Origin: a virus
Lineage: Duplodnaviria; Caudoviricetes
Length of the DNA: 64,000 bases
IMG/VR virus record: IMGVR_UViG_3300005675_000082
Span: 3,777 to 67,776 of that record
Strand: one strand, 5' to 3'
The translations under genes and the position numbers were made by a program. The notes beneath the pieces are model-generated. The model worked only from the letters and a program-made list of their open reading frames with translations, did not search any database and was not told where the DNA came from. Shown piece by piece: positions 10,802 through 49,942 of this stretch. Within the stretch, counting starts at the first letter, position 1. Each line of letters starts with the position of its first letter.

Positions 10802-13168
10802 CTAGAGTAATACCATCTGCACAGGCACGCGCTCTGGTGCCTGCGGCATCGGTTGATCGTACACCAGCCCCGTTTCAAAACTGGCCTGCTGCGTCCCATT
10901 ACGGCGGCTGAAACACGGCCCGCACAGTGTCACGTCGCCGTTGTGGACACGCACGATAACCTCATTGTCGTTGCGCGTCGCGCGTTCCTCCGGCGTCCCC
11001 ATATCCTTGCCGCAGTCGTCACAGCGGATAGGCGTTCGCGCTGCCGTTTTCACCTTGCCCAGATGCGCCAGCACGACCGTCACGGCACGTTCTCCGGCGC
11101 TGCTCAACTGCCGCTGCCACGCATCGTTACTAGGCGACCAGTGGAAACCGTGCCGCTTTAACAGGGTGATGGACTCGGCGTCGGGTTTGCCGGGGAACTG
11201 CAACCGGATGCGGTTGTCGGTTGTGTCGCGGATCAGCGTTACATCACCGTAGGTCTCCTGCTCCGGCTGAGAGGCCGCGCGCTGCACCTGCGCCTGCAAT
11301 TCGCTCAGGCGTTGTTTCATGCGGCGAATGTTGGCGTTGTTGTTGGTGAGTTGGTAATCGGGATACCCGACACGCCCCCTGTAATCGCCTTGCAGCAGTT
11401 TGTCAGCGGTCTGCTGGCTGATGTGCAGGTGCTCAATCAGCGCAGGGGCACGCTGTTCCGCTGGCAGGCGCATCACCTTACGCAGCGCGGCATTGGTCTG
11501 TTTCATGTGCGCCTGTTCGGCTTCTGCCGCCGTGATTTTGGCTTGCAGCTTCAGTATCGCCTGCGGGTCGTCTGACGAGATAACATCGTGGTTTTCAGCG
11601 CTTGCCGCCTTTTGTTCAAGGTCTTTGGCGCGCTGTAGTTTCTCAAAGCCGCGTCGCCACGTCCGGTCAATGCGGTTGCGATAGCTGGTGTCCCACTTCT
11701 CGCTGTGGTGTCCCTTCAGGATCGGCTGGCCGAAAGGGATGATGGACGCCATCTGTTCGGCGCGGCGTAGGTCGCGTGTGGCATCGGTACGCGCGGCGTC
11801 GGCTGCTGCGTGCATCCGTTCAAGCCGTGACTGCACCCGCGTCTGGTACGCTTCGATGCGTTCAGCGCAGGACGCGCACAGGGGCTTATCGTCGCTGGTG
11901 GACGTTGTATTGCTGGCGCAGATCACACAGCGCTGCGGGGCAGGCTGCGGCTGGTCGTAGAGCGTGCCCGTGTCGAAAGCCAATGTCAACGACGATACTG
12001 GCACGAGACGATTCTTGCCGTCGCCGCCATGAACAAAAGCCTTTACCCCATAGCCACCTGTGAGCGTTCCCGCCGAATGTTCAGTGCCGACGATAGAGCC
12101 AATTTTTAACCCCGCGAACTCGGTGAGAACAACATCGGCAGCAGCCGTGATAAGCGTCAGTGTGTTTTCGGGGAGATGACCGAATGTTCCGTCCTCAAAG
12201 AGAAGGGATGCGTTGGCGTGTTCATGGCTAGGGTATGTCTTTTCGGAACGGAGAACCATTGCAGGTTTGCCGTAGCTGGTTTCAATGATGTCGCCACGTT
12301 TGAGTTTGCCGAGCATGGGGGAAGGCGTTTCGGCTTCAAAGAGAGCCGGTTGGTCATACATCATGCCCGTGTCGAAGGTCGGCTCAACCGTCAAAGATCC
12401 CTTGACAGTTGGAAAATCTTCTCGCCAGTGTTCCAGTGTCATGGGCAGGCTTTTCATGTTGCCCTTGAAGAAGATGCGAATGCCGTGTTTATCAGCCACA
12501 TCCAGTAAGGCGCGGACATCACTCTCACGCGGCGGGAAATACTTCGGTCCCGATGAAGCCGCCCCGATGACAACCCAACTGATGACGCCGTGATACTTCT
12601 CAAATAGGTCTGAGAAGTCGAATGCCAGCGGTTCGGCACTAATCCAGCGCACCTTTGCCTTCACCTTCGACAGAGACTCAAAGGTACGTTCCAGCATCCG
12701 GCGCTGCTGTTCGATGCTCAACCGCTTGCCCCACATGAACGTGGGCGGGGTCGATGCGCCGATCCATACGTTATCGGGAATGTCGAAGTGTTGAACACGG
12801 ACAGGGTTTTTGGTCAACATCTGGAAGGTGTGCCAGTGAGCGCGGCGGCACATATCCAGCACCGCTTCTATTTCCTCATTGGGAACCCAATGCCCGAATA
12901 CATCTGCCATGCTGCCGACAAAAATTCTGGCAGGGGTCTTGAGTTTCAGCGGCTCATCCAGAATAGCGGGGTTCCAGTAGTGATGTTCAAACCCATGCGG
13001 ATAGGCTTTCTGGGCGACGTTGGTTGCCACATCTTCGGCGTAGCAGTTGGCAATAGTGCCATCTGGCATCTCCCATGCACAGCCGTGTTTACATCCTGAA
13101 ATTGGATTGTGGGTGTATTGAGTCCATTCTATCCCACGCCCACCATTCGTTTTTTGTTGTCTGTTCAT
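10802..13168 (-). CDS. Polyvalent protein: DUF5131 (Gp37/Gp68-like) + SH3/KOW-like + Zn finger + DUF3560-like + Zn finger
   Basis: IEWTQYTHNPISGCKHGC...CYAE, FVGSMADVF, LTKNP, WIGAS, SAEPL, WVVIG (DUF5131); IPFGQPILKGHHSE...ISSDDP (DUF3560-like). Confidence 0.75.
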   Translation of the reverse strand: MNRQQKTNGGRGIEWTQYTHNPISGCKHGCAWEMPDGTIANCYAEDVATNVAQKAYPHGFEHHYWNPAILDEPLKLKTPARIFVGSMADVFGHWVPNEEIEAVLDMCRRAHWHTFQMLTKNPVRVQHFDIPDNVWIGASTPPTFMWGKRLSIEQQRRMLERTFESLSKVKAKVRWISAEPLAFDFSDLFEKYHGVISWVVIGAASSGPKYFPPRESDVRALLDVADKHGIRIFFKGNMKSLPMTLEHWREDFPTVKGSLTVEPTFDTGMMYDQPALFEAETPSPMLGKLKRGDIIETSYGKPAMVLRSEKTYPSHEHANASLLFEDGTFGHLPENTLTLITAAADVVLTEFAGLKIGSIVGTEHSAGTLTGGYGVKAFVHGGDGKNRLVPVSSLTLAFDTGTLYDQPQPAPQRCVICASNTTSTSDDKPLCASCAERIEAYQTRVQSRLERMHAAADAARTDATRDLRRAEQMASIIPFGQPILKGHHSEKWDTSYRNRIDRTWRRGFEKLQRAKDLEQKAASAENHDVISSDDPQAILKLQAKITAAEAEQAHMKQTNAALRKVMRLPAEQRAPALIEHLHISQQTADKLLQGDYRGRVGYPDYQLTNNNANIRRMKQRLSELQAQVQRAASQPEQETYGDVTLIRDTTDNRIRLQFPGKPDAESITLLKRHGFHWSPSNDAWQRQLSSAGERAVTVVLAHLGKVKTAARTPIRCDDCGKDMGTPEERATRNDNEVIVRVHNGDVTLCGPCFSRRNGTQQASFETGLVYDQPMPQAPERVPVQMVLL

Positions 13169-13196
13169 CAGCTTGCTCCTGTGGTCTGGCCGGGGT

Positions 13197-13901
13197 TTAC
13201 TTGTTCAACGCATCTACGTAGTAATTCGACTGAATGAGCGCATCACCAGCGATTGAGGCGGGCGTTCTGTCGCCAACGTAGTTACTCGCAATCGCCTCTA
13301 GCGCCTTCTGCGTAATCGCGAGGTTCGCCCGTGCCGCCGCCAACTGTGCGCGTAACGTCTCGTTCTCGGTACGCAGCGCGTCGAGTTCGGTAGGTTCCGG
13401 TTCCGTGTGAATACCCGTTCCGTAGCATTCAGGGCACGGCACGATATACAAACCGCTGCTAGTTACTGTGCCGCTACCATCGCAACGCTCACAAGGACGC
13501 TCAAAACCGTCTTCCGGCGTCGGTTCGCTTGTCGCGTCCTGTGGTTCAACGACGGCGGCGGGCGCTGCAATCGCACGCACATCCGACACCTTAACGCTGT
13601 ATTCCTCATCACCTGTCGCCTTGTGGGCAAGGATATAACGCCCGCGATAGTAGCGAATAATGGTGTATCCATCTTCGCCAGCGTCTAACCGTTCAACCGT
13701 TGCGCCGATGGGCAGGTCAAATGTGTTGGGGCTGAAGCGCGCTAGTTCGTAACGGTAGATTTCCTCATCCGTTAGACGGTGGTCATAGTCGATTGTGCCG
13801 TAGGCAAACTCTTTGTTATCCTGTGCGTTGGTGAAACCTGCCGGAACTGCGCCGTACATGGCGGGGCGATTGAATAAGCCGTAAGTGAATGTTTCTGCCA
13901 T
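13197..13901 (-). CDS. DarA-related domain protein with DnaJ-type zinc finger
   Basis: YGLFNRP..YGAVP..G...YGTIDYDHRLTDEEIYRYEL; CERCDGSG...CPECYGTG. Confidence 0.55.
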   Translation of the reverse strand: MAETFTYGLFNRPAMYGAVPAGFTNAQDNKEFAYGTIDYDHRLTDEEIYRYELARFSPNTFDLPIGATVERLDAGEDGYTIIRYYRGRYILAHKATGDEEYSVKVSDVRAIAAPAAVVEPQDATSEPTPEDGFERPCERCDGSGTVTSSGLYIVPCPECYGTGIHTEPEPTELDALRTENETLRAQLAAARANLAITQKALEAIASNYVGDRTPASIAGDALIQSNYYVDALNK

Positions 13902-14082: not shown

Positions 14083-14673
14083 ATGAGCGAAGAACCTAAA
14101 GGACGCAGACCACGCCAGCGGCGCACACCCAAACGCCGTGTGCGGGACAGACTGCGTATCTCTCAGATGTACGTCTACGATGGCAAGACGCAGGGCGAAA
14201 TTGCCAAAGCACTCGGCCTGTCGGCGGCTACCGTCAACCGCGCTTTGCAGGAACTGGAAACAGGCTGGAAGGCGGAAGCGGCGCAGCATTACCGCGTGTG
14301 GAAACAAACGCTGGTGGATGAGGCGCTGTATCAACTCGAAGAATGGTACGCCGCGTGGCAAAAGAGCAAGCTGCCGCGTGAGGTGGACAGCACCAAACAG
14401 AGCGCCGGGGCCGATGGCAAAAAGGTGGAAGTCAGCAAACGCACCGAGGGACGCGCGGGGAACCCCTCGTTTCTCAATGGTGCGGGGCAGACGCTGGATC
14501 GCCTGATGAAACTGACGGGGCTGGATGTGCAGAAGATCGCGCCCACCAATCCCGATGGCACGCAGGAATACAAACCCTTCAGCCTTGAGGATTTCGGGGC
14601 CATTATCGCCAAAGCGCGCGAGTATGAGGAAACAATAAAGGATGGTCGCAGCGGCACAGACAACGGAGCGTGA
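14083..14673 (+). CDS. terS: Terminase small subunit
   Basis: N-terminal HTH (TQGEIAKALGLSAATVNRAL), AGNPSFL motif, directly upstream of terL. Confidence 0.8.
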   Translation: MSEEPKGRRPRQRRTPKRRVRDRLRISQMYVYDGKTQGEIAKALGLSAATVNRALQELETGWKAEAAQHYRVWKQTLVDEALYQLEEWYAAWQKSKLPREVDSTKQSAGADGKKVEVSKRTEGRAGNPSFLNGAGQTLDRLMKLTGLDVQKIAPTNPDGTQEYKPFSLEDFGAIIAKAREYEETIKDGRSGTDNGA

Positions 14674-16072
14674 ATGGATCGTCGCTGAAATTGGCAAGTG
14701 TGCGACCTCTCCTATCTACTTCGTGAATGAATACGTACAAATCTTTGACCCACAGGTCGGAAGCTGGTTTGCCTTTAAACTGTGGAAGGCGCAGGTAGAA
14801 GTGCTGCACCTGATGCACACGCGGCGCTACATTGTCGGGTTAAAGGCGCGTCAGATCGGCATGACGACGCTGGCCCTCGCCTATGCGCTGTGGGAAATTC
14901 TGTTTCGCCCGATTGCCTCCGTCATGATGTTTTCGCGGCGCGATGAAGAAGCCAAGGACATGCTGCTCAGGCTAAAGGATATGTACCTGAAACTTCCGAC
15001 GTGGTTACAGGCGCGGTATATCGACACGGACAATGCCCACCTGTTAAAACTTTCCAACGGCTCAATGGTGCGTGCGTTTCCCACAACAGGCGGCGACGCC
15101 TACACTGCCACGACGGTGGTTTGTGACGAATCGGATTTAATTTCCGATTTTGGGGCGCTGATGCGTTCGGCAAAACCAACAGTCGATAATGGCGGTAAAT
15201 TGTTTTTGCTGGGGCGGCCCAACAAGGATAAACCCAACAGCATTTTTAAGGCGATTTATCGTGCCGCCAAGCAGGGGTTAAATGAATATACACCTGTGTT
15301 TTTATCGTGGACAGCAAGGCCCGACAGAGACGCGGTATGGTATGAAAAACAGAAGGCCGACTCTCTGGCGCTGGATGGCACGCTGGATTCCTTGCATGAG
15401 CAATATCCGGCGAACGATGCCGAAGCATTGGCATCCAAGACGTTGAATAAACGTTTTCCGCCCGCCATGCTGCTTAGTTGTTATGAGGAAGTTGCTCCCA
15501 TCCCTCTGGAGCGCCTGCCCGAAAAATCACCTGTGATCCCCGGTTTAACCGTGTACAAGCTGCCGGAACAGGACGCCCGTTACTGTTTAGGCGCTGATCC
15601 AGCAGAAGGCAATCCCACGTCAGACGACAGCGCGGCGGTGGTTTTAAATGCCAAAACAGGGGAGCAGGTTGCGGAGCTATCGGGCAAGTTCCAACCGGAT
15701 ACGTTTGCGGCACACATCGCTGCCCTTTCGCAGTGGTATAACAATGCCCGCGCGATGGTGGAGCGTAACAATCATGGTCATGCGGTGCTGTTATGGCTGC
15801 GTTCGTTTCGCCCAGGGGTGCAGCGCGCATGGGGGGCGGACAAAAAAGAGGGCTGGCTCAGTAATGGGCCGGGGAAAACAATGCTGTATGACAAGGGCGT
15901 AGAAGCGGTGAAAGACCGGTGGACCATCATCCACAGCTTTAAAGCCTACACGCAGATGAGCAGTATCGAAGGCTCGACGCTGCGCGCGCCGGATGGCGAT
16001 ATGGACGATGTATCAGACGCCTACATGCTGGCGTTACAACTGGTGGGCAAATTAGGGGTTTTTGCGGGATAG
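14642..16072 (+). CDS. terL: Terminase large subunit
   Basis: LKARQIGMTT Walker A variant, VVCDE Walker B, GADPAEG and DDVSDA nuclease motifs. Confidence 0.92.
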   Translation: MVAAAQTTEREWIVAEIGKCATSPIYFVNEYVQIFDPQVGSWFAFKLWKAQVEVLHLMHTRRYIVGLKARQIGMTTLALAYALWEILFRPIASVMMFSRRDEEAKDMLLRLKDMYLKLPTWLQARYIDTDNAHLLKLSNGSMVRAFPTTGGDAYTATTVVCDESDLISDFGALMRSAKPTVDNGGKLFLLGRPNKDKPNSIFKAIYRAAKQGLNEYTPVFLSWTARPDRDAVWYEKQKADSLALDGTLDSLHEQYPANDAEALASKTLNKRFPPAMLLSCYEEVAPIPLERLPEKSPVIPGLTVYKLPEQDARYCLGADPAEGNPTSDDSAAVVLNAKTGEQVAELSGKFQPDTFAAHIAALSQWYNNARAMVERNNHGHAVLLWLRSFRPGVQRAWGADKKEGWLSNGPGKTMLYDKGVEAVKDRWTIIHSFKAYTQMSSIEGSTLRAPDGDMDDVSDAYMLALQLVGKLGVFAG

Positions 16073-16080
16073 GGGCATAC

Positions 16081-18909
16081 ATGGGCATTTTAAACCAGAT
16101 CGGGCAGTTTGTAGGGCAGGTGTTTAACAGAACTGCCGCCGCGCAGTATATGGTGGGGGCGGATGGCAGTATTGTCCCCCTGTCTCCCAGCGCGGGGGAA
16201 AAAGCCGCGTCCCGTCCAGCCTCCTCCTCCATGATGTTATTCCCGTCATGGCGCGATGGACAGCCGCAGTGGAACCTGCTGAATTTAGACGCCTACATCG
16301 AAGAAGGTTACAACCTCAATACACTCATCCACAGCGCGATTGCCTACAAGGGACGGGCATACATGTCGGCCCCACAGCGCGCGTTTGGTGAGTCGATGGA
16401 AAATCCTGTGCGGATGCTGCCCAATCACCCCCTGAGTAAACTGCTGGCGCGGCCTAACCCGTACCAGTCCACAGCGGAATACCAGCAGTTACGCATGACG
16501 TACCTGAATCTGGCGGGCAACGCCTATACCTTTTTGCAGCGCGATCGCACTGGGGCCTTTCCCAAAGCGCTGTGGCTGCTGCGTCCCGATTGGGTCTACA
16601 TCATCCCTGACGACGGGCACGGCATCAAGGGCTACCTGTACCGTCCCGACGGCTACACGACACAGGACGGGCTGCCCATCCTGCCAGAGGACATGATTCA
16701 CATCAAATTCCCCAACCCCGGCGACCCGCTAGGGGGCCTGGGCTACGGCCTGTCGCCGATGACACCGCTGGCACAGTCGGGCGATGTGGATAACGATGTC
16801 ACCCACTTTTTAAAGAAGTTTTTTGAAAACAAGGCGATGGTGGGCGGCGTGATTAAATACAACATGCCCATCGACGAGGCCACCGTTGGCCTCATCCGCA
16901 ACCGTTACAAGGAAGTCTACGGGGGCAGTGAAAACTGGGGCGACGTGCTGATTCTGGATCAGTCCGCTGAATACCAGCGTATCGCCATGAACTTTGAGGA
17001 AATGAAGTTTGATGCGCTGGACAAACGTAACGAGAGCCGCATCCTCATGCCCTTCGGTGTCCCCGGCATCCTCATTGAAACGCTCAGCGGCTTGGAAAAG
17101 AGTTCTTACGCCAACAAACGCGAGGCGCGGATCATGTTCTGGGAAGACACCATGCGTAGTGAAATGCGTCTGATGGAATCGGATGACCAGTATTACCTGA
17201 CGTACCCCGATGATGGCGCGTTCCCCATGCACGACCTGAGCGAAGTCCCCGCGCTGCAAAAGAACATTCCTGAACTGGTGAATGCGGCGCATAAGATGTG
17301 GAGCATGGGCACGCCGCGCGATGACGCGTACCGCACGGTGGGGTTAAACGTCCCGTCCACCGCAGATGGCGGCGTGGGGTATGTGCCGGGCAGTATGCTG
17401 CCGGTGGGCACGCCGCGCGCAGGGGTACAAACGCCAGACACAGCAGCGCAGGATGCACAGGATACGCTGGACGCACAGGCAGAACAGACCGCGATGGAAG
17501 ATGCGGCAACGGTGGACAATGAGGGGGCAAAAGCACGGCCCGATTCTGTTCGCAGCGTGAAAGCGGCGGAACAGGCGGGATACGTTTACCTCTCGCTGGC
17601 ACATGAGCCGCAGTTACTTGCCCTTCAGCAGTTGGCGAAAGCGGCTAATCCCGCGCTGGAACTCACACCGCCCCAACAGCTTCATATCACACTGGCGTAT
17701 GCGCCGGATGTGGATGAAACAAGCTTCGACACGGTTTTCCGCGCCTGTACGCCGGAAGATTTAAACCTTGTCGTCACGGGAACATCCTTTTCCACCTTTG
17801 AACCGGAACAGGGACAGCCGACGCCGTTGGTTCTGAATATCCAGTACGACGACACGCTGGCACAGTTCCAGCGCCGTGTCTGTGAGGCGTTACAGACGGC
17901 GGGCATTGCGGTGAGCGAATACACGTTAAAGTGGGTTCCCCACATCACACTGGGATACTATGCGGAAAAGGTGGCGCTGCCTGCCACCTCGGACACTGTA
18001 ACCCTGCGTCCATCTGCGGTCTGCTGGGCGCGTGAGGATTACAGGGTTGTCCATGAAACAGTGCTGCCCAACAACAAATCTGGTTATACCCATGAAGAAA
18101 AAACGCTCATCTGGAAGGCGCAGGATAACATCGCTCAATCTCACGAATCAGCATTCGCCAGCGAAGCGCGCAAACAGTTTGAAGCGGACAAACGCGCGAT
18201 ACTGGCGCTGGTGACGGATGCCAAAACCAAAGCGCTGGAACGTAAGGCCAGCATCGACTGGAAAGACCTCATTCCGCTGGTGGGTGCGTATCTGGCGACG
18301 GAAAGCATTCCGGCATGGCAGGATGGGTTTACGCCGCTGGTGGGTGCGGTGGCGCTGGATGTGGGCAATTACTGGGCGGGTCGTTTGGGGCGTGAGCTGG
18401 TGGTGGATACCGTGTTTCCGTCTGAGTGGTTAAGAACATACACGCTGGTGTTTGCAGACCCGATTTCACGCACGACAGGCGACGCGATACGCGCCATTCT
18501 GGAACAGGCGGCAGATGAAGGGTGGAGCATCCCGCAAATGCAAACGCGTATGGGGCTGGTGTTTGAGCAGTGGATGGCGGGAGGGGTATCCGCAGAAGAT
18601 TTTGACTTCCTGAGCCAGCGGATGCCGCCGTATCGGACTGAAAACATCGCACGCACAGAAACGACGAGGGCGGCATCTGCCAGCGCAGACAGAACCTACC
18701 GTCAGTGGGGGGTGGCAAGACGCGAATGGATTCCCACGAACGACGACCGCACGCGCGACAGCCACGCCGCCGCCGATGGGCAAATCAAACCTATGGACGA
18801 GCCTTTTATCATCGGCGGCTATCAAATGAACTACCCAGGCGACATGAGTTTAGGAGCGCCATTAAGTGAAGTCGCGGAATGCAGATGCACCATCGCGGCT
18901 ATCGCCTGA
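16081..18909 (+). CDS. Portal protein fused to a 2H phosphoesterase and a MuF (head morphogenesis) domain
   Basis: HK97-type portal (LLARPNPY, GNAY, GYGLSP); two HxT motifs (LHITL aa535, PHITL aa621); MuF C-terminus (IARTET, W...DDRTRDSH, PGD...CRC). Confidence 0.88.
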   Translation: MGILNQIGQFVGQVFNRTAAAQYMVGADGSIVPLSPSAGEKAASRPASSSMMLFPSWRDGQPQWNLLNLDAYIEEGYNLNTLIHSAIAYKGRAYMSAPQRAFGESMENPVRMLPNHPLSKLLARPNPYQSTAEYQQLRMTYLNLAGNAYTFLQRDRTGAFPKALWLLRPDWVYIIPDDGHGIKGYLYRPDGYTTQDGLPILPEDMIHIKFPNPGDPLGGLGYGLSPMTPLAQSGDVDNDVTHFLKKFFENKAMVGGVIKYNMPIDEATVGLIRNRYKEVYGGSENWGDVLILDQSAEYQRIAMNFEEMKFDALDKRNESRILMPFGVPGILIETLSGLEKSSYANKREARIMFWEDTMRSEMRLMESDDQYYLTYPDDGAFPMHDLSEVPALQKNIPELVNAAHKMWSMGTPRDDAYRTVGLNVPSTADGGVGYVPGSMLPVGTPRAGVQTPDTAAQDAQDTLDAQAEQTAMEDAATVDNEGAKARPDSVRSVKAAEQAGYVYLSLAHEPQLLALQQLAKAANPALELTPPQQLHITLAYAPDVDETSFDTVFRACTPEDLNLVVTGTSFSTFEPEQGQPTPLVLNIQYDDTLAQFQRRVCEALQTAGIAVSEYTLKWVPHITLGYYAEKVALPATSDTVTLRPSAVCWAREDYRVVHETVLPNNKSGYTHEEKTLIWKAQDNIAQSHESAFASEARKQFEADKRAILALVTDAKTKALERKASIDWKDLIPLVGAYLATESIPAWQDGFTPLVGAVALDVGNYWAGRLGRELVVDTVFPSEWLRTYTLVFADPISRTTGDAIRAILEQAADEGWSIPQMQTRMGLVFEQWMAGGVSAEDFDFLSQRMPPYRTENIARTETTRAASASADRTYRQWGVARREWIPTNDDRTRDSHAAADGQIKPMDEPFIIGGYQMNYPGDMSLGAPLSEVAECRCTIAAIA

Positions 18910-18960: not shown

Positions 18961-19365
18961 ATGGCTAAACGTAAACTGACTGAAGAACTGGCAGGCACAG
19001 CGCCCGAAACGCCCGTTGAACCGTCCTATACGGCGCTTTTTGCCAGCGGTGACAGCGTGGAAGCATACGTCGAAGACCTGTGCACCCCTTTGTATCTTGC
19101 CCCCTTCTATGAGGCTAGAATCGCCATTGCCTACGAGGGCAAGCGCCTGACCAGCATGGCGCGCGATCATGGTATCTTCCGTCTGGTGCTGGAAGATGAG
19201 ACGCGCGTGTCCGTCGTCAGTCGCCAACTGCTGACGGTGACCCACACGCCGCTTGTGGAAGATGCGGCAGTGGAAGTGGTTGTCCCATTGAACGCAGTGG
19301 ATGCTGATGGGGATGTGCTCAAGGCTAACGCCATTGAGTCTCAAGACGGGGACGCAGTAGGATAG
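18961..19365 (+). CDS. Hypothetical protein
   Basis: 134 aa after the promoter, RBS AGGAG. Confidence 0.65.
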   Translation: MAKRKLTEELAGTAPETPVEPSYTALFASGDSVEAYVEDLCTPLYLAPFYEARIAIAYEGKRLTSMARDHGIFRLVLEDETRVSVVSRQLLTVTHTPLVEDAAVEVVVPLNAVDADGDVLKANAIESQDGDAVG

Positions 19366-19368
19366 CCG

Positions 19369-19698
19369 ATGGCTGACATTCCGGTGATACGCGGCAGATT
19401 GCCCTACGAACAGGAGCGTGGCATCACGGGCATGGTGACGGTCTCCGAAACCTACGATGATGCGGGAGATGTAATAGACGCTACGGCGATATGGCAGGGC
19501 GGGGACAAGATACAGATTTACGCCCCGATGCTGGATGACCTGAACGCGCGTTATGCAGCAGTGAACGGGGACATCCTCACCGTCTGCCAGTACACGCTGA
19601 AACTTTTGGCCTATTATCCCGATGAACACCTGTACATCGCGCAGCGTATCGCGCCGCCGCTGGACGCCCCGACCACGATTGATGAGATTGAATTTTAG
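19369..19698 (+). CDS. Hypothetical protein (YYPDE paralog A)
   Basis: MADIPVIRG...LLAYYPDE. Confidence 0.6.
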   Translation: MADIPVIRGRLPYEQERGITGMVTVSETYDDAGDVIDATAIWQGGDKIQIYAPMLDDLNARYAAVNGDILTVCQYTLKLLAYYPDEHLYIAQRIAPPLDAPTTIDEIEF

Positions 19699-19709
19699 GG
19701 GGGGGATTA

Positions 19710-20108
19710 ATGAGTGACATACCCATTCTTAAAGGCAATATCCCTAGCAGTATCGCGGGTGGGCGCATGGTCATCCATGACAATGTATTCCGTTCCCCGA
19801 AAAGCAAAAGGAGAGTAGCTTTTCATTGGTTAGGTGGGGAAATCTCGGCACTTCCAAAATGGGAGATTGAAGGAAGCCGATTTGCAGCACTAGAGGCTAA
19901 CAGATTGACTTATTTTGAATTTACCTTTGAAGTGGTTGGATACTATCCCGATGAAGAATGTTATGCCGTGCGCCTGTTAACGGCTCCGCATGTTGTGAGG
20001 GTGACTTATAACGATGATACGGTATACGTTCAACGACGGGGGACTTACCGCCGTGAGGTGATCGCCAATAATCGACAGAGAGAACGCGATGGACGCGCTC
20101 ACCCTTAA
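19710..20108 (+). CDS. Hypothetical protein (YYPDE paralog B)
   Basis: MSDIPILKG...VVGYYPDE; more AT-rich. Confidence 0.6.
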   Translation: MSDIPILKGNIPSSIAGGRMVIHDNVFRSPKSKRRVAFHWLGGEISALPKWEIEGSRFAALEANRLTYFEFTFEVVGYYPDEECYAVRLLTAPHVVRVTYNDDTVYVQRRGTYRREVIANNRQRERDGRAHP

Positions 20109-20442
20109 CCGCGCCATTGGGGAACTATTTGGTTACCGTGTGGCACAGCGCCAGTATCTTGGACGCAGCGCCTACATCATTGAACGCAACGGACACAAGG
20201 AACCCTTTTCCGACTGCTGGCTGATTGAAGAACCATTGGCATGGGCAGAGTATTCCCCCAACTGGGCATTTGACGAACACGGCGCGGTGCAGCTTATTGC
20301 GGGAAACCCGCGCTTTGGCATTCAGGTGGTGGCAGGAGGCTTTCGGGTCACGGTGGCTGATACCGCTATTGTGGTCGAGCAGGTAGCGTTTGCCCATGCG
20401 GTGAGCGAGGCGTGGTACATGTTTGTGAAGAGTGAGGTGTGA
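20089..20442 (+). CDS. Phage ABA-sandwich-like domain protein
   Basis: LNRAIGELFG...YSPNW...A..HAVSEAW pattern; similar to 59906-60379. Confidence 0.45.
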   Translation: MDALTLNRAIGELFGYRVAQRQYLGRSAYIIERNGHKEPFSDCWLIEEPLAWAEYSPNWAFDEHGAVQLIAGNPRFGIQVVAGGFRVTVADTAIVVEQVAFAHAVSEAWYMFVKSEV

Positions 20443-20913
20443 GTGACAAGCCAATACCTGACCAACAAAACAGACCTCGCTATTGACGGGCAGTTTGTGT
20501 ATCCCGCTGGCACGCTGCTGCGGGTGACGGGGCATGATGGCGACAGCGTGCGCGTTTCCGGGCATGTCTCAGGCGAACGGCGTAAACGCTGGCTGCACAA
20601 GTCGTTGGTGTGCGAACTGCCCACCGCGCCGGACGGGGAATTCTGGCGTGTGATATTCCCGCACGCTCCCGCAGATCGGGCGCAGTTATATCGCCCTGAT
20701 GGCAAAACCGGACTGTTTATGATCTACAGCGAGGATGCTAAACGGCTGGTTGAATGGGTGCGGACACATCCCACACACGCCGACTCTGCGACTGGAATGC
20801 GCATTAGCGAACAGGGGTACGTGCTCACACTGCGCTATCTGAAGAATGAATTTAAGGGCGGGGGCTGGTTGTATTTTTTCGATTTTAACCTTAAGGCAAC
20901 AGCGCATGAATAA
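20443..20913 (+). CDS. Hypothetical protein
   Basis: 156-aa collinear ORF. Confidence 0.55.
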   Translation: MTSQYLTNKTDLAIDGQFVYPAGTLLRVTGHDGDSVRVSGHVSGERRKRWLHKSLVCELPTAPDGEFWRVIFPHAPADRAQLYRPDGKTGLFMIYSEDAKRLVEWVRTHPTHADSATGMRISEQGYVLTLRYLKNEFKGGGWLYFFDFNLKATAHE

Positions 20914-21250
20914 CAAACGCCCCAAAAAGACCAGTGCGCCCCCAACGGTGATTACGGTTGCGGAATTTGTGCGGGATGGCTGGCAGGCCAATATCGACAA
21001 TGGCATCTGTGATGTGTATCGCCACCACCTGCTGAGCGGTATCTGGCGCTTGCCAACGGATCTTGTGCTGGCGGTTATTCCTATCGACCCGCCCGATCCT
21101 CCCTGTTATCTGCTGTCGAACGAGTGGGGGCAACATGCCGTACAGGCCGCCACGAAACTGGATGTGGTCTTTCGCCAGCCCAACAGCAAACCCGACACCC
21201 TGCCCGAAACACTCCCGCCGCTTTTCGAAACACAGTCAACGAAACGGTAA
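20846..21250 (+). CDS. Hypothetical protein (probable start 20906)
   Basis: Collinear ORF coupled to the upstream gene. Confidence 0.5.
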   Translation: MNLRAGAGCIFSILTLRQQRMNNKRPKKTSAPPTVITVAEFVRDGWQANIDNGICDVYRHHLLSGIWRLPTDLVLAVIPIDPPDPPCYLLSNEWGQHAVQAATKLDVVFRQPNSKPDTLPETLPPLFETQSTKR

Positions 21251-21266
21251 GATTGCATAATGCACT

Positions 21267-21295
21267 TGCACATTTGTTCTGTTATATGCTACAAT
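21267..21295 (+). promoter_or_regulatory. Head-operon promoter with LexA-like box
   Basis: TGCACATTTGTTCT at 21267-21280; extended -10 TGCTACAAT. Confidence 0.7.
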
Positions 21296-21342
21296 TCCAA
21301 GAATTAACGAAACGTTGATTATTAAGATGCGAGGCTTAACAC

Positions 21343-21753
21343 ATGGCTCCAGTAGCACTCGGCACATCCATCACCCCCGGCGCGAACGCTGTTTTTGACA
21401 GCGGGCATATCGCAGGGGAAGCGCTGACCAACGGCAATCTGGTCTACCGTGACCCTGCCGACAGCAACAAACTCAAGAAGGCAGACCAGACATCGGCCAC
21501 CAAGGCGCAGGTGTTTGGCGTCGTTATCGGCACGGTGGCCAGCGGGTCGCAGGTGCTGGTACAGACGAAGGGCACGGTGACAGGCACGGCAACGCTGGTT
21601 CAGGGCGAGCACTACGGCATCTCTGGCACAGCGGGCAGCATTGAGCCTGCGGCAGATGAAGGCGCGGGTGACTTCTGGACGTATGTGGGATACGCGCCCA
21701 CCACCACGTCGCTGGAACTGGCGATCCACCACGCAGCGGTGGCGCGTGCCTGA
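21343..21753 (+). CDS. Capsid cement/decoration-like protein
   Basis: AGEALTNGNLVY...KAD...VFGV...V.T.G.V pattern; position in the head module. Confidence 0.6.
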   Translation: MAPVALGTSITPGANAVFDSGHIAGEALTNGNLVYRDPADSNKLKKADQTSATKAQVFGVVIGTVASGSQVLVQTKGTVTGTATLVQGEHYGISGTAGSIEPAADEGAGDFWTYVGYAPTTTSLELAIHHAAVARA

Positions 21754-21944
21754 TGATGGACGTGCGCTGTCCGAAGTGTAACAAAAAGCTCGGTGAGAGC
21801 GATGGGCGCGGCACAGTGGAAATCCTGTGTCCCAACTGCAAACATATCGTGCGCAGTTATCCATCGGTCGCCACTGAGATTGTTACGAGCGATGAACGGC
21901 TGAACACGCGGCGCTTCGAGCCACAGGAAATCAAACGCCGCTAA
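21753..21944 (+). CDS. com: Mu Com-like zinc-finger RNA-binding regulator
   Basis: DVRCPKCNKKL...VEILCPNCK; followed by Com-type target hairpins. Confidence 0.8.
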   Translation: MMDVRCPKCNKKLGESDGRGTVEILCPNCKHIVRSYPSVATEIVTSDERLNTRRFEPQEIKRR

Positions 21945-21952
21945 CCGCAGTT

Positions 21953-22024
21953 GAAGCGCCCTGAGCGCAACTTGCAGAACACACCGAATGCCCTGAGCAT
22001 CCTTTGCTCCGGGTGTTTTTGTTT
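21953..22024 (+). promoter_or_regulatory. Two Com-type RNA hairpins overlapping a terminator-like hairpin
   Basis: GAAGCGCCCTGAGCGC (21953) and GAATGCCCTGAGCATCC (21986); alternative GAGCA-TCCTT-TGCTC stem followed by TGTTTTTGTTT. Confidence 0.7.
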
Positions 22025-22033
22025 GGAGAGGGT

Positions 22034-23173
22034 ATGAAAAAACAATTCGAGCGTTTAGATAAAGCCTTTCACGCCCACATCACAAAAGCCGATGCCGGGG
22101 TTGTGGAAGCCATTGTGAACGTCTTTGGCATTCTGGACTATGGCAACGACATCGTTCAGAAGGGCGCGTTTGCCAAGACCATCTCCGAACGCTGGTCAAA
22201 AATCCTTGTGCTTGACCAGCACAACACCGACAGCACGTTAAACGCCATCGCCAAGGTGCTGGCCATTCGCGAAATGGAAGCCACTGAACTGCCGATGGAA
22301 ATCACCGCTGAGTACCCCGAAGCCACTGGCGGGTTGTGGGTGCGGATGCAGTTTATGGTGGACGATGAAAAAAGCAACGCCATCTTTAACCGCATCAAGG
22401 CGGGTGTCATCGGTGAATACTCCATCGGCTTTGACATCATTCGTCAGCACTACGAAAAGATTGAATGGCGCGGGCAGAAGGTGAATGCCCGTTTTATTGA
22501 CGAAATTCGCCTTTTTGAGTGCTCACCAGTCCTGTGGGGAATGAATCAGGCAACGGCCACTGTCAGCGCCAAAGAGTACATGCCGGATGGCAGCGCAACG
22601 CAGCGGCTTGGGGATTATCTGGCGGCGTGCCTGTTTAAAGCGGGCAACTACACCAATGATGATTTCCTTGCGGTGGGACTTACCAACAACGATGAACACG
22701 CGGCGCTGTTGAGCCTGCTTAAAGTCAGCATCGGCGCATTTCTGGACGCCATTCCAGAAGACCTTGCCCTGCGTCCAATGGACATGGGCTTTGGGATGCT
22801 GTGGTGGGCGGCGGCGCTGACGGAAGAAAGTAAGGCGCTGGTCAAAGAGGGGCGCGTGATCAGCGCGTCCAACGCCGAACGCTTACGGGTGGCCTACGAA
22901 GCGCTGACCGATGTGCTGATGGCCGCCGGACTCATCGAACATCCCGACGATGAAGATACAGAAGACTACGCAGGCGAAGGCGCGGATAACGCCAAAGCCA
23001 GCGACGAACCAAGTGAACAATCAGGGCGTGACGATGCCCTGTTGGACAATCCAGCACAACCCCCCGCGTTGGTCGAGCCGCAGGCGAAACAAGTTTCGCA
23101 AGCACTCACCGCAAACGAGCGGCAGCGGTTACTGGCGCAAATCAATCTTGAACTTGAAACCTTAGGAGGATAG
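22034..23173 (+). CDS. HK97-family prohead maturation protease with C-terminal extension
   Basis: DYGNDIVQKGAF, LDQH, YSIGF, LFECSPVLWGMN; KEGRVISASN motif. Confidence 0.9.
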   Translation: MKKQFERLDKAFHAHITKADAGVVEAIVNVFGILDYGNDIVQKGAFAKTISERWSKILVLDQHNTDSTLNAIAKVLAIREMEATELPMEITAEYPEATGGLWVRMQFMVDDEKSNAIFNRIKAGVIGEYSIGFDIIRQHYEKIEWRGQKVNARFIDEIRLFECSPVLWGMNQATATVSAKEYMPDGSATQRLGDYLAACLFKAGNYTNDDFLAVGLTNNDEHAALLSLLKVSIGAFLDAIPEDLALRPMDMGFGMLWWAAALTEESKALVKEGRVISASNAERLRVAYEALTDVLMAAGLIEHPDDEDTEDYAGEGADNAKASDEPSEQSGRDDALLDNPAQPPALVEPQAKQVSQALTANERQRLLAQINLELETLGG

Positions 23174-23175
23174 GC

Positions 23176-24453
23176 ATGGTTGCCTTACGTAATGATGTAG
23201 ACCTCCTGACAGGGCGTGCGGTGCAGCTCTACAAGGACGCGGGCGAGATCATCCGTAATCTGGATGCGTCAGCGGACGACGTGGAAAAAGCCAACCGTAT
23301 GATGGAAGAAGCCAAGGGCCTGAAGGATCGGGCCGCGAAGCTTGCTGAAATCAATGCGGCGGGCGGTGAACTGCAAAACGACACGCACCTGCGGGGAGAA
23401 CAGCAGAAGGAAGAAGGCTTTAAGTCGTGGGGTGAATTCACCTCCGCTCTGGCTCAGGAAGTACTGAGCAAGGGCAAGGTGCGCGACCCGCGTCTGAAGG
23501 TCTTCGAAGACCGCGATTTCTCAAATCGCAAGGACATGACCGGTGCGACAGGCGGCGCGGGTGGGTACATCATCCAGACCGAACATCTGGCGCAGCTCAT
23601 GGCCGTAGCCGCCCCGATGTCCGCCATTCGCGAGGGCGCAACAATTGTGAACATGGGTTCGCGTCAGGTCGATATGCCTGTCGTGGATCAGGCGACGGTT
23701 CCCGCCAGCGGCGTCCCCACCTTCTTCGGTGGTGTGCGCGTCTACTGGCAGCAGGAAGCCAGCGCCATTACAACCAGCGATGCAGGCTTTAAGCAGGCGG
23801 CGCTGGTGGCCAGCGAACTGGTCGGCTTGACCTACGTCGGCAATTCGCTGCTTCAGGATGCGTCGGTGTCACTGGCGTCATTCCTGGGCGGGCGTATGGG
23901 TTTCCCCGGCGCGATTGCGTGGGCGGAAGACTACGCCTTCATCATGGGCGATGGTGCAGGCAAACCGCTGGGGATCGTGAACGCCCCTTGCACCAAGACC
24001 GTCACCCGTACCACCACTGTCACCGTCAAGTACGATGACCTGGTGGGCATGGAAACGGCCTTCTGGGGCAACGATGGCGTGTGGGTCATCAACAACTCGC
24101 TCAAGAGCGTGCTGATGCTGATGAACGGCCCATCGGGGAACGCAAGTTACCTGTGGGGCAACACCGCGCAGGGCGTGCCCAACACGCTGCTGGGGCGTCC
24201 CGTCATCTGGACGGACAAACAGCCTGCGGTGGGCACCAAGGGCGATATCCTGCTGGTGGATCGCAGCATGTACGTCATCGGCGACCGTCAGGCCACTTCC
24301 GTCGAGAGCGACCCCTCGGTGGGTTTTGGCTCGAACAAGACGGCATTCCGTGTCATTCACCGCGTAGACGGGCAGCCGTGGCTTTCTGGCGTCATCACGC
24401 TGGCAGGCGACAGCAGCACCGTGTCGCCGTTCGTCGCGCTATCGACGCTCTAA
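23176..24453 (+). CDS. Major capsid protein (HK97 fold) with N-terminal scaffold domain
   Basis: Coiled-coil N-terminus, K|DMTGATGGAGGY, FIMGDGAGKPLGI, LLGRPV, F...TAFRVIHRVDG. Confidence 0.92.
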   Translation: MVALRNDVDLLTGRAVQLYKDAGEIIRNLDASADDVEKANRMMEEAKGLKDRAAKLAEINAAGGELQNDTHLRGEQQKEEGFKSWGEFTSALAQEVLSKGKVRDPRLKVFEDRDFSNRKDMTGATGGAGGYIIQTEHLAQLMAVAAPMSAIREGATIVNMGSRQVDMPVVDQATVPASGVPTFFGGVRVYWQQEASAITTSDAGFKQAALVASELVGLTYVGNSLLQDASVSLASFLGGRMGFPGAIAWAEDYAFIMGDGAGKPLGIVNAPCTKTVTRTTTVTVKYDDLVGMETAFWGNDGVWVINNSLKSVLMLMNGPSGNASYLWGNTAQGVPNTLLGRPVIWTDKQPAVGTKGDILLVDRSMYVIGDRQATSVESDPSVGFGSNKTAFRVIHRVDGQPWLSGVITLAGDSSTVSPFVALSTL

Positions 24454-44107: not shown

Positions 44108-44253
44108 TGGTCGCGTGTCAGCGTGCAGATGTCGGCCAGCACAGACTCAAGGCGGGTTACTTCGCGTTCCAGTTCCACGACGCGCGCATGATCGGCCATC
44201 TGCTGTGGGCGTTCGATGGGTGTGAAGCCTTCGCTGCGGTAGTTGTGGGTCAT
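44044..44253 (-). CDS. Hypothetical protein
   Basis: 69 aa, coupled to the MTase gene. Confidence 0.5.
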   Translation of the reverse strand: MTHNYRSEGFTPIERPQQMADHARVVELEREVTRLESVLADICTLTRDQWLTPIETLLKIRARCQEVQR

Positions 44254-49585: not shown

Positions 49586-49942
49586 TTACAGCAGCGGCAT
49601 CTGCTCCGGCACATCCTCAGCGACAATAATCATGGCGTGCGTCTCAAATTCAAAGTCGGCTTTGGCCTGTTTCCATGACTTCGTGCGCAGGCGTCCGGTG
49701 AAGCGCTGCCACGCCCGTAAATAGGCGGTTCTGCTGGTGACGGTAATGGTTTTTTCTGCCAGTCTGATGTCCTCATGCGCCAGTATCTGCCAGACGTGAA
49801 AGCCGATACTGTCCGCCGGAATGAACACGGCATACGGTTCCTGTTTAACCGCCAGCGGGTAGCCGTAATCGTGCAGCCGCAGCGCATCGTCCCCTGTCAC
49901 CACATGATACTGAGTATCAAAACGATAGAGCGTGATGGTCAT
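49586..49942 (-). CDS. Hypothetical protein
   Basis: 118 aa, coupled to DnaB. Confidence 0.6.
   Translation of the reverse strand: MTITLYRFDTQYHVVTGDDALRLHDYGYPLAVKQEPYAVFIPADSIGFHVWQILAHEDIRLAEKTITVTSRTAYLRAWQRFTGRLRTKSWKQAKADFEFETHAMIIVAEDVPEQMPLL

What the first reader, a model, noticed from the sequence alone, without database searches (positions are those of the whole stretch)
16081..18909. Portal-2H phosphoesterase (Acb1-like)-MuF triple fusion, possibly cut by the prohead protease
Seen: one 942-aa ORF containing an HK97-type portal, an acidic linker, a ~165-aa domain with two intact HxT motifs (LHITL aa535, PHITL aa621; DNA ~17578-18075) and a MuF domain. The junctions contain Lys sites (SVK|AAEQ, NNK|SGY) similar to the capsid K|DMT site. 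Known: 2H phosphoesterases include anti-CBASS Acb1 and LigT-type enzymes; MuF proteins are packaged and can carry enzyme cargo; HK97 protease cleaves after Lys. Inference: about 12 copies of a cyclic-nucleotide-degrading or RNA-end-healing enzyme are built into the head through the portal, released at maturation and co-ejected with DNA, giving counter-defence before gene expression.
Basis: partly seen in the sequence, partly recalled or inferred. Interest (0 to 1): 0.85.

Follow-up and report, generated by a model that had tools for sequence, protein, structure and literature searches.

The report
Phage portal carrying a 2H phosphodiesterase
An uncultured phage makes its only portal protein as one chain with an intact LigT-like 2H phosphodiesterase and a MuF head domain, probably to carry the enzyme inside the capsid; the fusion is real, but this design and its likely counter-defence role were already predicted in print in 2017 and 2022.

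Summary
ORF 16081-18909 encodes 942 aa: an HK97-family portal, an acidic linker, a 2H phosphoesterase with both HxT motifs (H535/T537, H621/T623) and a MuF domain. It holds the only portal, MuF and 2H matches in a 67.8-kb, about 98% complete virus record.

An alignment-based AlphaFold model (pLDDT 92) has a 2H fold. It is closest to bacterial LigT/ThpR-type RNA 2',3'-cyclic phosphodiesterases (Z 17-18). Acb1 is a weaker match (Z 12.8) and scores below Pfam's threshold.

The 2H domain is a cassette inserted at the junction of a common portal-MuF backbone. Most relatives lack it, and it was gained or lost at least twice. In some relatives portal and MuF are separate genes.

Cleavage by the prohead protease is unproven. 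I did find that a Lys followed by Ala, Asp or Ser lies 4-11 residues before the 2H domain in 68 of 129 diverse relatives, against 19-21 in control windows. Published virion mass spectrometry of Gordonia phage GMA2 holds a peptide spanning the second HxT motif of a 2H-like domain.

Iyer et al. (2017, 2022) already described 2H-portal/MuF fusions and proposed the same function. This scan has 79 similar notes. Verdict: a new member of a known but untested kind, of modest interest.

The parts
16081..18909 (+). Single 942-aa ORF: portal, 2H phosphoesterase and MuF fused. It holds the only portal, MuF and 2H matches in the genome.
   Evidence: The start agrees with relatives that begin MG(I/V/L).
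16231..17412 (+). HK97-family portal domain (aa 51-444)
   Evidence: Pfam PF04860 E 3.7e-46. The PDB profile's best match is the Rhodobacter capsulatus GTA portal 6tba, E 7.8e-59. Clade HMM envelope is aa 51-444.
17413..17571 (+). Acidic, low-complexity linker (aa 445-497). Stand-alone portals of relatives end within the equivalent stretch.
17560..17565 (+). K494-A495, a candidate processing site 4 residues before the first strand of the 2H domain
   Evidence: It fits the Lys-[Ala/Asp/Ser] motif enriched before 2H cassettes in 129 representatives. Cleavage is not shown.
17572..18069 (+). 2H phosphoesterase domain (aa 498-663), LigT-like
   Evidence: AlphaFold model pLDDT 92.1. VIA Z 17.7 to 5h7e and 17.4 to E. 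coli LigT. Foldseek E 1.4e-7.
17683..17691 (+). First catalytic HxT motif (H535-I-T537)
   Evidence: His invariant in 66 aligned relatives and Thr kept in at least 90% of them; both invariant in a second set of 50
17941..17949 (+). Second catalytic HxT motif (H621-I-T623)
   Evidence: His and Thr invariant in both alignments
18076..18081 (+). K666-S667 at the 2H/MuF boundary, a candidate processing site
   Evidence: In 16 of 20 fused relatives without the 2H domain I read a Lys followed by Ala, Ser, Gly or Thr at the start of the MuF half in the printed alignment. Cleavage is not shown.
18082..18906 (+). MuF / SPP1 gp7-like head-morphogenesis domain (aa 668-942)
   Evidence: Pfam PF04233 41.1 bits; phrog_2468 E 2.4e-36; conserved R-x-E, D-x-R-x-R-x-x-H and C-R-C columns
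14642..16072 (+). Large terminase subunit, immediately upstream
   Evidence: PHROGs
22004..23173 (+). Prohead serine protease (Peptidase_S78, HK97 type) with a long C-terminal extension
23176..24453 (+). HK97-fold major capsid protein with an N-terminal delta region of about 120 aa
23533..23538 (+). Predicted capsid maturation site K120|D121
   Evidence: The Lys is kept in 23 of 25 clade capsids, 14-15 residues before the GG(F/Y)L(V/I)P motif. The next residue is Asp in 14, and Gln, Ala, Val or Ser in the others. The analogy to HK97 K103|S104 is from my own knowledge.

Best explanation
This is the phage's sole portal gene. It encodes an HK97-family portal whose C-terminus runs on, through an acidic linker, into a catalytically intact LigT-like 2H phosphoesterase cassette and then a MuF (SPP1 gp7-like) head domain.

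In solved HK97-family portals the C-terminal crown faces the capsid interior. Every one of the 12 portal subunits would therefore place one 2H-MuF module inside the procapsid. The 2H domain is a mobile cargo cassette dropped into the portal-MuF junction.

Its most likely role is that of a virion-carried phosphodiesterase, present at the very start of infection. It would open 2',3'-cyclic phosphate ends or 2'-5'/cyclic oligonucleotide linkages, which makes it a counter-defence enzyme.

Shown here: the single ORF, the domain identities, the intact HxT pairs, the 2H fold, the cassette behaviour, and the absence of any second portal gene.

Inferred: the position inside the head, the copy number, the catalytic activity, the substrate, release by cleavage after Lys at the cassette boundaries, and ejection with the DNA.
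For: Domains and motifs.

Fold: model pLDDT 92.1; Z 17.7, rmsd 4.2 over 170 aligned residues to D. radiodurans CPDase; Z 17.4, rmsd 2.9 over 162 residues to E. coli LigT.

Catalytic residues: His of both HxT motifs and Thr of the second are invariant in both alignments (50 and 66 relatives); Thr of the first is invariant in one and kept in at least 90% in the other.

Gene content: the genome has one portal, one MuF and one 2H-bearing ORF, all the same ORF.

Cassette behaviour:
- The insert is absent from 30 of 37 backbone relatives.
- It sits in two separate places on the backbone tree, so at least 2 changes are forced.
- The window's 2H is 47% identical (39-40% in the MAFFT alignment) to the 2H of a different portal lineage (P0041/42), but only 21-23% identical to the 2H of the other 2H-bearing subclade.
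- Portal and MuF are separate adjacent genes in some relatives.
- A stand-alone 2H-MuF protein exists (P0072).

Spread of the class: 38 of the 50 nearest 2H representatives carry a Pfam portal domain.

Virion presence by analogy: the MS table of Gordonia phage GMA2 (PMC4524720, Table S5) lists a peptide that contains the second HxT motif of Orf10's 2H-like domain.

Published prediction of the same role: PMC5512222 section 20 and PMC9503650 section 3.4.5.
Against: No enzymatic, proteomic or structural data exist for this protein or its close kin.

If the chain is not cleaved, the enzyme stays tethered to the portal and cannot be ejected.

The junction Lys residues are not universally conserved: relatives L011, L016 and L045 lack one before MuF, and P0020 lacks one before its 2H. 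A loose Lys-small motif occurs 9 times in the protein.

The substrate cannot be read from the fold. LigT, Usb1, AKAP18, viral 2'-5' PDEs and Acb1 all match at Z 12-18.
Confidence: 0.6

Rival explanations
1. The domain is an Acb1-type anti-CBASS nuclease. The HK97-type protease cuts it free at K494 and K666, and it is co-ejected to destroy cGAMP or cA3 before any gene is expressed.
For: The 2H fold is shared with Acb1 (7t26: Z 12.8, rmsd 2.5, 135 of 137 residues aligned, 21% identity). An Acb1-annotated marine phage protein ranks third in the viral fold library. A Lys followed by Ala, Asp or Ser is enriched just before 2H cassettes: 68/129 against 21/129 and 19/129 in control windows, Fisher p about 9e-10, with the caveat that the sequences are related. 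The clade's capsids keep a Lys at the HK97-like maturation position.
Against: Pfam Acb1 scores 17.9 bits, below the cut-off of 27, and only 4 of 50 relatives hit it at all. The PDB profile search finds LigT-type enzymes (E about 1e-6) and a poxvirus cGAMP PDE (E 0.0018), but no Acb1 at E up to 1. The residues after the Lys differ between the capsid (mostly Asp-Leu/Met) and the junctions (Ala, Ser). No general Lys site follows the 2H domain in the wider family. Cleavage and ejection are untested.
Confidence: 0.2
2. RNA-end healing. The enzyme opens 2',3'-cyclic phosphate ends left by host anticodon nucleases or other metal-independent RNases, so that a ligase can repair tRNA or mRNA early in infection.
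For: The closest solved structures and profiles are RNA 2',3'-cyclic phosphodiesterases: E. coli LigT/ThpR, drCPDase and PH0099. NCBIfam's best family is TIGR02258.
Against: TIGR02258 scores 36-40 bits against an equivalog cut-off of 65.7. The 67.8-kb genome has no Rnl-type (PF09414) or RtcB (PF01139) ligase, although a host ligase could serve. Iyer et al. 2017 note that the portal/MuF-linked 2H versions never associate with RNA ligases.
Confidence: 0.2
3. The enzyme is not delivered. It stays covalently on the portal, or on unassembled portal protein, and works in the producing cell late in infection, for example by removing defence signals triggered by structural proteins. Fusion would only guarantee co-expression and dosage.
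For: The extension is in frame with no slippery site or internal start at the junction, so all portal protein carries it. No cleavage evidence exists. Relatives work with portal and MuF either fused or split, so the tether itself is tolerated.
Against: The broader MuF-cargo and polyvalent-protein literature, and the GMA2 virion peptide, point to packaging. The motif ahead of the cassettes suggests processing.
Confidence: 0.2
4. The 2H domain is a catalytically dead structural spacer, or the ORF is a chimeric assembly artefact.
For: None beyond the absence of experimental data.
Against: The HxT motifs are kept in both alignments of relatives. An independent contig and six homologues show the same continuous frame.
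Confidence: 0.03

Closest known systems
2H domains fused to portal or MuF in phage 'polyvalent' / head-packaged effector proteins (Iyer, Burroughs, Anand, de Souza, Aravind 2017, PMC5512222; Iyer et al. 2022, PMC9503650)
   Same: The same domain combination and the same proposed logic: packaged in the head, injected, acting as an RNase or degrading 2'-5'/cyclic oligonucleotide defence signals, and not linked to an RNA ligase.
   Different: Those papers give architectures only. Here the 2H lies between portal and MuF in a Chloroflexota-associated phage clade. The cassette's gain and loss and a Lys-small motif ahead of it are documented here.
E. coli LigT/ThpR and Deinococcus radiodurans CPDase (RNA 2',3'-cyclic phosphodiesterases; PDB 5ldm, 4qak, 5h7e)
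   Same: Best fold matches (Z 17.4-17.7). Two HxT motifs and a similar size of about 170-180 aa.
   Different: Only 16-19% identity. The score is below NCBIfam's equivalog cut-off. Those are free cellular enzymes, not parts of a virion protein.
Acb1 anti-CBASS nuclease (phage T4 / FBB1; Hobbs et al. 2022, PMC9117128; PDB 7t26)
   Same: A phage 2H phosphoesterase. The whole Acb1 core superposes (135 residues, rmsd 2.5, 21% identity).
   Different: Acb1 is a small free early protein with a C-terminal lid. This domain fails the Pfam Acb1 threshold and is nearer to LigT. Its substrate is untested.
MuF proteins and MuF polymorphic toxins (SPP1 gp7; Jamet et al. 2017, PMC5576092)
   Same: The MuF module sits next to the portal, binds the portal in SPP1, and carries variable enzymatic cargo.
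   Different: Classical cargo is C-terminal to MuF, as in relative P0032 with an ADP-ribosyltransferase. Here the cargo is N-terminal to MuF and the whole unit is fused to the portal.
'Portal and MuF-like fusion proteins' of actinobacteriophages, and the portal of Geobacillus phage GBK2
   Same: Portal and MuF are in one chain.
   Different: None of the portal-MuF matches from cultured phages covered the 2H stretch, and a tblastn of the 2H domain alone against 50,697 phage records found nothing.
Gordonia phage GMA2 Orf10 (883 aa, 'putative structural protein'; PMC4524720)
   Same: A long head-module protein next to the presumed portal, with a 2H-like domain carrying both HxT motifs. A peptide from that domain was found in purified virions.
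   Different: Its 2H is C-terminal. No Pfam portal or MuF domain was detected in Orf9 or Orf10, and the Pfam 2H scores are below threshold. The kinship is distant.

Membership tests
2H phosphoesterase superfamily | Two H-x-T/S motifs, one in each lobe | tested here: met
   H535-I-T537 and H621-I-T623. Both His residues and T623 are invariant in alignments of 50 and 66 relatives; T537 is invariant in one and kept in at least 90% in the other.
2H phosphoesterase superfamily | Bilobed alpha+beta 2H fold | tested here: met
   Model pLDDT 92.1. Z 17.7 / rmsd 4.2 / 170 aligned to 5h7e. Z 17.4 / rmsd 2.9 / 162 aligned to 4qak and 5ldm.
2H phosphoesterase superfamily | Profile match above the curated threshold | tested here: met
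   PF13563 32.7 bits (cut-off 27) and PF02834 26.8 bits (cut-off 23.3)
2H phosphoesterase superfamily | Phosphodiesterase activity | not testable with these tools
   Needs an enzyme assay.
ThpR/LigT equivalog (TIGR02258) | Score above the NCBIfam equivalog cut-off | tested here: not met
   36.3 bits (whole protein) and 40.4 bits (domain) against a cut-off of 65.7
Acb1 anti-CBASS nuclease (PF23474) | Score above Pfam's gathering threshold | tested here: not met
   17.9 bits against 27. Only 4 of 50 relatives match at E <= 0.001, the best at 26.3 bits.
Acb1 anti-CBASS nuclease (PF23474) | Compact 2H core superposable on Acb1 | tested here: inconclusive
   Z 12.8, rmsd 2.5, 135 aligned, 21% identity. 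This is lower than LigT, but Acb1 is a smaller protein.
Acb1 anti-CBASS nuclease (PF23474) | Cleavage of 3'3'-cGAMP, cA3 and similar signals; a C-terminal lid over the ligand | not tested
   No assay was possible, and residue-level comparison of the lid was not done.
HK97-family portal (PF04860) | Profile match above threshold, and kinship to solved HK97-type portals | tested here: met
   158.2 bits against 39.1. The PDB profile matches 6tba at E 7.8e-59 and further HK97-type portals.
MuF / SPP1 gp7 family (PF04233) | Profile match above threshold; position next to the portal | tested here: met
   41.1 bits against 29.6; fused to the portal. The narrower TIGR01641 domain model scores 30.1 bits against 39.65, which is not met.
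Head-packaged / polyvalent phage effector proteins (Iyer et al. 2017) | An enzymatic effector domain in one chain with a virion-anchoring module (portal or MuF), encoded in the packaging/head gene block | tested here: met
   Architecture. Context is terminase - this ORF - protease - capsid.
Head-packaged / polyvalent phage effector proteins (Iyer et al. 2017) | Physical presence in virions and delivery into the host | not testable with these tools
   There is only an analogy: a GMA2 Orf10 2H peptide in purified virions.
Substrate of the HK97-type prohead protease | Cleavage at defined sites during head maturation | tested here: inconclusive
   Lys-[Ala/Asp/Ser] is enriched before 2H cassettes, and Lys-[Ala/Ser/Gly/Thr] lies before MuF in 16 of 20 relatives as read from the printed alignment. 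However, there is no shared extended motif with the capsid site, and a covariation test was impossible because a capsid match was found in only 5 of 79 loci.

The most novel reading that the evidence does not exclude
The portal gene works as a small polyprotein. A short Lys-[Ala/Asp/Ser] tag in front of each cargo cassette (K494-A495 and K666-S667 in this protein) would be a prohead-protease site. Assembly would then load exactly one 2H-MuF, or one free 2H, per portal subunit, and maturation would release them for ejection. This would be a general, sequence-readable rule for portal-linked cargo in many phage lineages.
Probability: 0.3. Interest if true: 0.6.

Novelty: new member of a known kind. 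Interest (0 to 1): 0.3.

Why it matters
If the enzyme is packaged and released, it would act before any phage gene is expressed. Free anti-defence proteins such as Acb1 cannot do that. The class is widespread: 241 clusters at 50% identity match this 2H domain, and most are long proteins in which the domain follows about 450-650 residues. It has been predicted in print for years but never tested. This example has clean domain boundaries, a confident model and candidate cleavage sites, so it is a usable template for an assay. It does not open a new question.

Tried and rejected
- Single-sequence AlphaFold of the 2H domain gave pLDDT 40 and was discarded. The alignment-based model was used instead.
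- A tblastn of the 2H domain against 50,697 cultured-phage records found nothing at E 1e-3.
- A sequence-only PDB search with the single domain was not significant (E 0.48). The profile search was used.
An independent contig (L002) served as the check.
- Frameshift or internal-start production of shorter forms: there is no slippery heptamer and no Shine-Dalgarno-preceded in-frame start at aa 440-700 apart from chance hits inside domains.
- RNA ligase partners were not found in the genome.
- I looked in open papers for proof that the S78 protease of T5 cleaves its portal, and found none in the texts available. Precedents for portal processing (lambda gpB, Mu gpH, P2 gpQ) are from my memory only and are not used as evidence.
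Full report
**The object.** The window is bases 3777-67776 of a 67,776-bp IMG/VR virus record that CheckV rates 98% complete. ORF 16081-18909 (+) is open for 942 codons. It follows the large terminase gene (14642-16072) by nine bases. Its start agrees with relatives that begin MG(I/V/L).

Pfam finds Phage_portal (aa 114-411, E 3.7e-46), 2_5_RNA_ligase2 (32.7 bits, cut-off 27), LigT_PEase (26.8 bits, cut-off 23.3) and Phage_Mu_F (aa 827-938, 41.1 bits, cut-off 29.6). Acb1 scores 17.9 bits, below its cut-off of 27. PHROGs agrees on the portal and head-morphogenesis parts. The stretch aa 445-510 (the linker plus the first residues of the 2H domain) is acidic, with 12 Asp/Glu against 5 Lys/Arg.

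**Is the fusion real?** An independent metagenome contig (L002) is 99.45% identical over 4548 nt and reads through portal end, 2H and MuF in one frame. It has a separate in-frame TAG at codon 128, inside a patch of clustered mismatches. Six more proteins at 40-63% identity have the same portal-2H-MuF order with both HxT motifs kept. The genome has one portal match, one MuF match and one 2H-bearing frame, all in this ORF. Unless the chain is processed, every portal subunit therefore carries the extension. I found no slippery site and no Shine-Dalgarno-preceded internal start at the junctions. Read mapping could not be done.

**Fold of the middle domain.** A single-sequence model failed (pLDDT 40). 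A model built on a 66-sequence alignment reached pLDDT 92.1. The fold matches are:
- Foldseek top hits: E. coli LigT and related RNA 2',3'-cyclic phosphodiesterases (E 1.4e-7 to 2e-7).
- VIA-align: Z 17.7 (rmsd 4.2, 170 aligned) to D. radiodurans CPDase and Z 17.4 (rmsd 2.9, 162 aligned) to LigT.
- Then Usb1 (Z 15.7), AKAP18 (15.2), viral 2'-5' phosphodiesterases (about 13), Acb1 (12.8; rmsd 2.5, 135 aligned, 21% identity), a Burkholderia phage BCSR5 phosphodiesterase (12.4) and penguinpox cGAMP PDE (10.7).

A PDB profile search matches LigT-type enzymes at E about 1e-6 and the poxvirus cGAMP PDE at E 0.0018. It finds no Acb1 at E up to 1. NCBIfam's ThpR model scores 36-40 bits against a cut-off of 65.7. 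The domain is therefore a bona fide 2H phosphoesterase of the broad LigT-like kind. It is neither a ThpR equivalog nor a member of the Acb1 family by the curated thresholds. The fold does not reveal the substrate. The His of both HxT motifs and the Thr of the second are invariant in alignments of 50 and 66 relatives; the Thr of the first is invariant in one and kept in at least 90% in the other. That argues for a working active site.

**The domain is a cassette in a portal-MuF backbone.** Most relatives are portal-MuF fusions of 706-760 aa without the 2H domain. In the alignment the 2H is a clean insert of about 165-210 residues at the junction. I built a tree on portal and MuF columns only. 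On it the seven 2H-bearing proteins fall in two places. One clade holds the window protein with P0003-5 (support 98). P0012, P0014 and P0020 are interleaved with 2H-less proteins. Starred branches force at least two changes, and the best tree needs four.

The window's 2H is 47% identical (39-40% in the MAFFT alignment) to the 2H of a different portal lineage (P0041/42). It is only 21-23% identical to the 2H of the other 2H-bearing subclade. This fits repeated acquisition. In IMG/VR relatives, portal and MuF are either fused or encoded as adjacent separate genes. Other relatives carry cargo after MuF, such as an ADP-ribosyltransferase in P0032. A stand-alone 2H-MuF protein also exists (P0072).

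Searching 1.84 billion cluster representatives with the 2H domain gave 241 hits at E <= 0.001. Most are 850-1400-aa proteins in which the domain follows roughly the first 450-650 residues. Of the 50 nearest, 38 have a Pfam portal domain and 10 a Pfam MuF domain. Genome-derived relatives of the backbone are nearly all in Chloroflexota MAGs (Aggregatilineales, Anaerolineae, Dehalococcoidia), including a 5.2-Mb scaffold. That is the best guess at the host. None of these carries the 2H.

**The cleavage idea.** The protease downstream is Peptidase_S78, the HK97 type. The capsid protein has an N-terminal delta region of about 120 aa. In 25 clade capsids a Lys is kept in 23, at 14-15 residues before the GG(F/Y)L(V/I)P motif. 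It is followed by Asp in 14, and by Gln, Ala, Val or Ser in the others.

For the portal fusion the evidence is mixed.
- In favour: in 129 representatives (at most 50% identical to each other, with the window's near kin left out) a Lys occurs 4-11 residues before the first 2H strand in 68. Two control windows of equal width further upstream have 21 and 19 (Fisher p about 9e-10; the sequences are related, so this is approximate). The next residue is Ala in 33, Asp in 10 and Ser in 10, against a background Ala frequency of 12%. K494-A495 fits this pattern. It lies in the low-confidence N-terminal tail of the model, not in the fold.
- In favour: in 16 of 20 fused relatives without the 2H I read a Lys followed by Ala, Ser, Gly or Thr at the start of the MuF half in the printed alignment. 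K666-S667 fits.
- Against: several relatives lack these Lys residues, namely L011, L016 and L045 before MuF and P0020 before its 2H. The residues around the Lys do not resemble the capsid site. A loose Lys-small pattern occurs nine times in the protein. No Lys enrichment follows the 2H domain in the wider family. Some separately encoded MuF proteins keep the same Lys, so it may be structural.

I put cleavage at about 0.3.

**Is such a domain ever in virions?** The viral fold library matched long structural proteins of cultured actinophages. One is Gordonia phage GMA2 Orf10 (883 aa), which lies next to Orf9. Both are annotated 'structural' in that record. Its C-terminal region has both HxT motifs, though its Pfam 2H scores are below threshold. 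The published virion mass-spectrometry table (PMC4524720, Table S5) lists 18 Orf10 peptides. One of them spans the second HxT motif. This is distant kin with a different domain order. It does show that a 2H-like domain of a head-module protein can be physically present in purified particles.

**What is already known.** Iyer et al. 2017 (PMC5512222, section 20) describe 2H domains fused to MuF or portal domains and note that they lack RNA-ligase partners. They propose that the domains act as RNases or degrade 2'-5' oligoadenylate or cyclic-nucleotide defence signals. Iyer et al. 2022 (PMC9503650) state that such fusions suggest packaging into heads and injection to counter SMODS, cyclic-mononucleotide and CRISPR signalling. 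Jamet et al. 2017 describe MuF proteins as carriers of variable toxin domains next to the portal. 'Portal and MuF-like fusion protein' is an existing annotation in mycobacteriophages. I found no experimental test of a portal-linked 2H domain. The phage here, like those in the 2017 survey, has no Rnl-type or RtcB ligase. This scan itself holds 79 notes on portal/2H/MuF fusions in at least 76 genomes, with the same conclusion from other follow-ups.

**Most likely mechanism.** The portal dodecamer nucleates the procapsid with its C-terminal crown inside. This follows from solved HK97-family portals, to which this one is clearly related. Twelve 2H-MuF modules are thereby enclosed. MuF may keep its usual portal- and DNA-associated role, as established for SPP1 gp7 and cited. 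The 2H enzyme is carried along and, if freed by cleavage after Lys at the cassette boundary, could leave with the DNA and act at once on cyclic-phosphate or 2'-5'/cyclic oligonucleotide substrates. The rivals are a late, non-delivered role in the producing cell and RNA-end healing with a host ligase.

**Verdict.** The finding is a real, well-formed member of a described but untested class. Novelty is low and interest is modest.

Noticed in passing
window 18961-21944: About 3 kb holding eight small + strand ORFs (63-156 aa) lies between the portal fusion and the protease. The seven I scanned have no Pfam hit, and the six also put through PHROGs have none. In many relatives the protease gene follows the portal-MuF gene within a few bases, while others have inserts of 1-5 kb here. 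This looks like a hot spot for accessory genes.
   Followed up: partly
window 10802-13901 (- strand): Just upstream of the packaging genes and divergently oriented are a 234-aa protein with a DarA_C domain (defence against restriction A, 32.6 bits) and a 788-aa DUF5131-DUF3560 protein. Both domain families are linked in the literature to polyvalent or anti-restriction proteins.
   Followed up: partly
L036:780-4145 (IMG/VR relative): A 1121-aa portal-MuF protein of a relative is interrupted inside the portal domain by an intein (Intein_splicing plus a LAGLIDADG homing-endonuclease domain).
   Followed up: yes
L002:3148-3562: A 99.45% identical contig from another metagenome has an in-frame TAG at codon 128 of the portal, inside a patch of 13 clustered mismatches. 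It is probably an assembly error or a defective variant. The 2H and MuF junctions are intact.
   Followed up: partly
Proteins P0054, P0088, P0075, P0066, P0076 and many others (after their 2H domain): In many portal-2H proteins of other lineages the 2H domain is followed by a conserved module of about 35 aa: E-L-x-x-W-x-R/K-K/R, then a Gly, then Phe, then L-P. It matches no Pfam family. The window protein lacks it and goes straight into MuF.
   Followed up: partly
window 27377-28699 (- strand): A 440-aa protein with four treble-clef zinc-finger repeats (DUF4379), a CapR homology domain and a REase_MTES_1575-like nuclease domain sits on the opposite strand among the tail genes. It looks like a selfish nuclease insertion.
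   Followed up: no
window 18098-18103: A run of six A's (codons for Glu-Glu-Lys) lies at the very start of the MuF half. A slip here would end the chain within about 10 codons in the -1 frame and give portal-2H without MuF. It is probably just a consequence of the conserved E-E-K residues.
   Followed up: no
window 57242-58030, 49939-51306, 44250-45383: The phage encodes a ParA-type ATPase, a DnaB helicase and an N6/N4 DNA methylase. I saw no integrase among the ORFs scanned, so a plasmid-like prophage state is possible.
   Followed up: no
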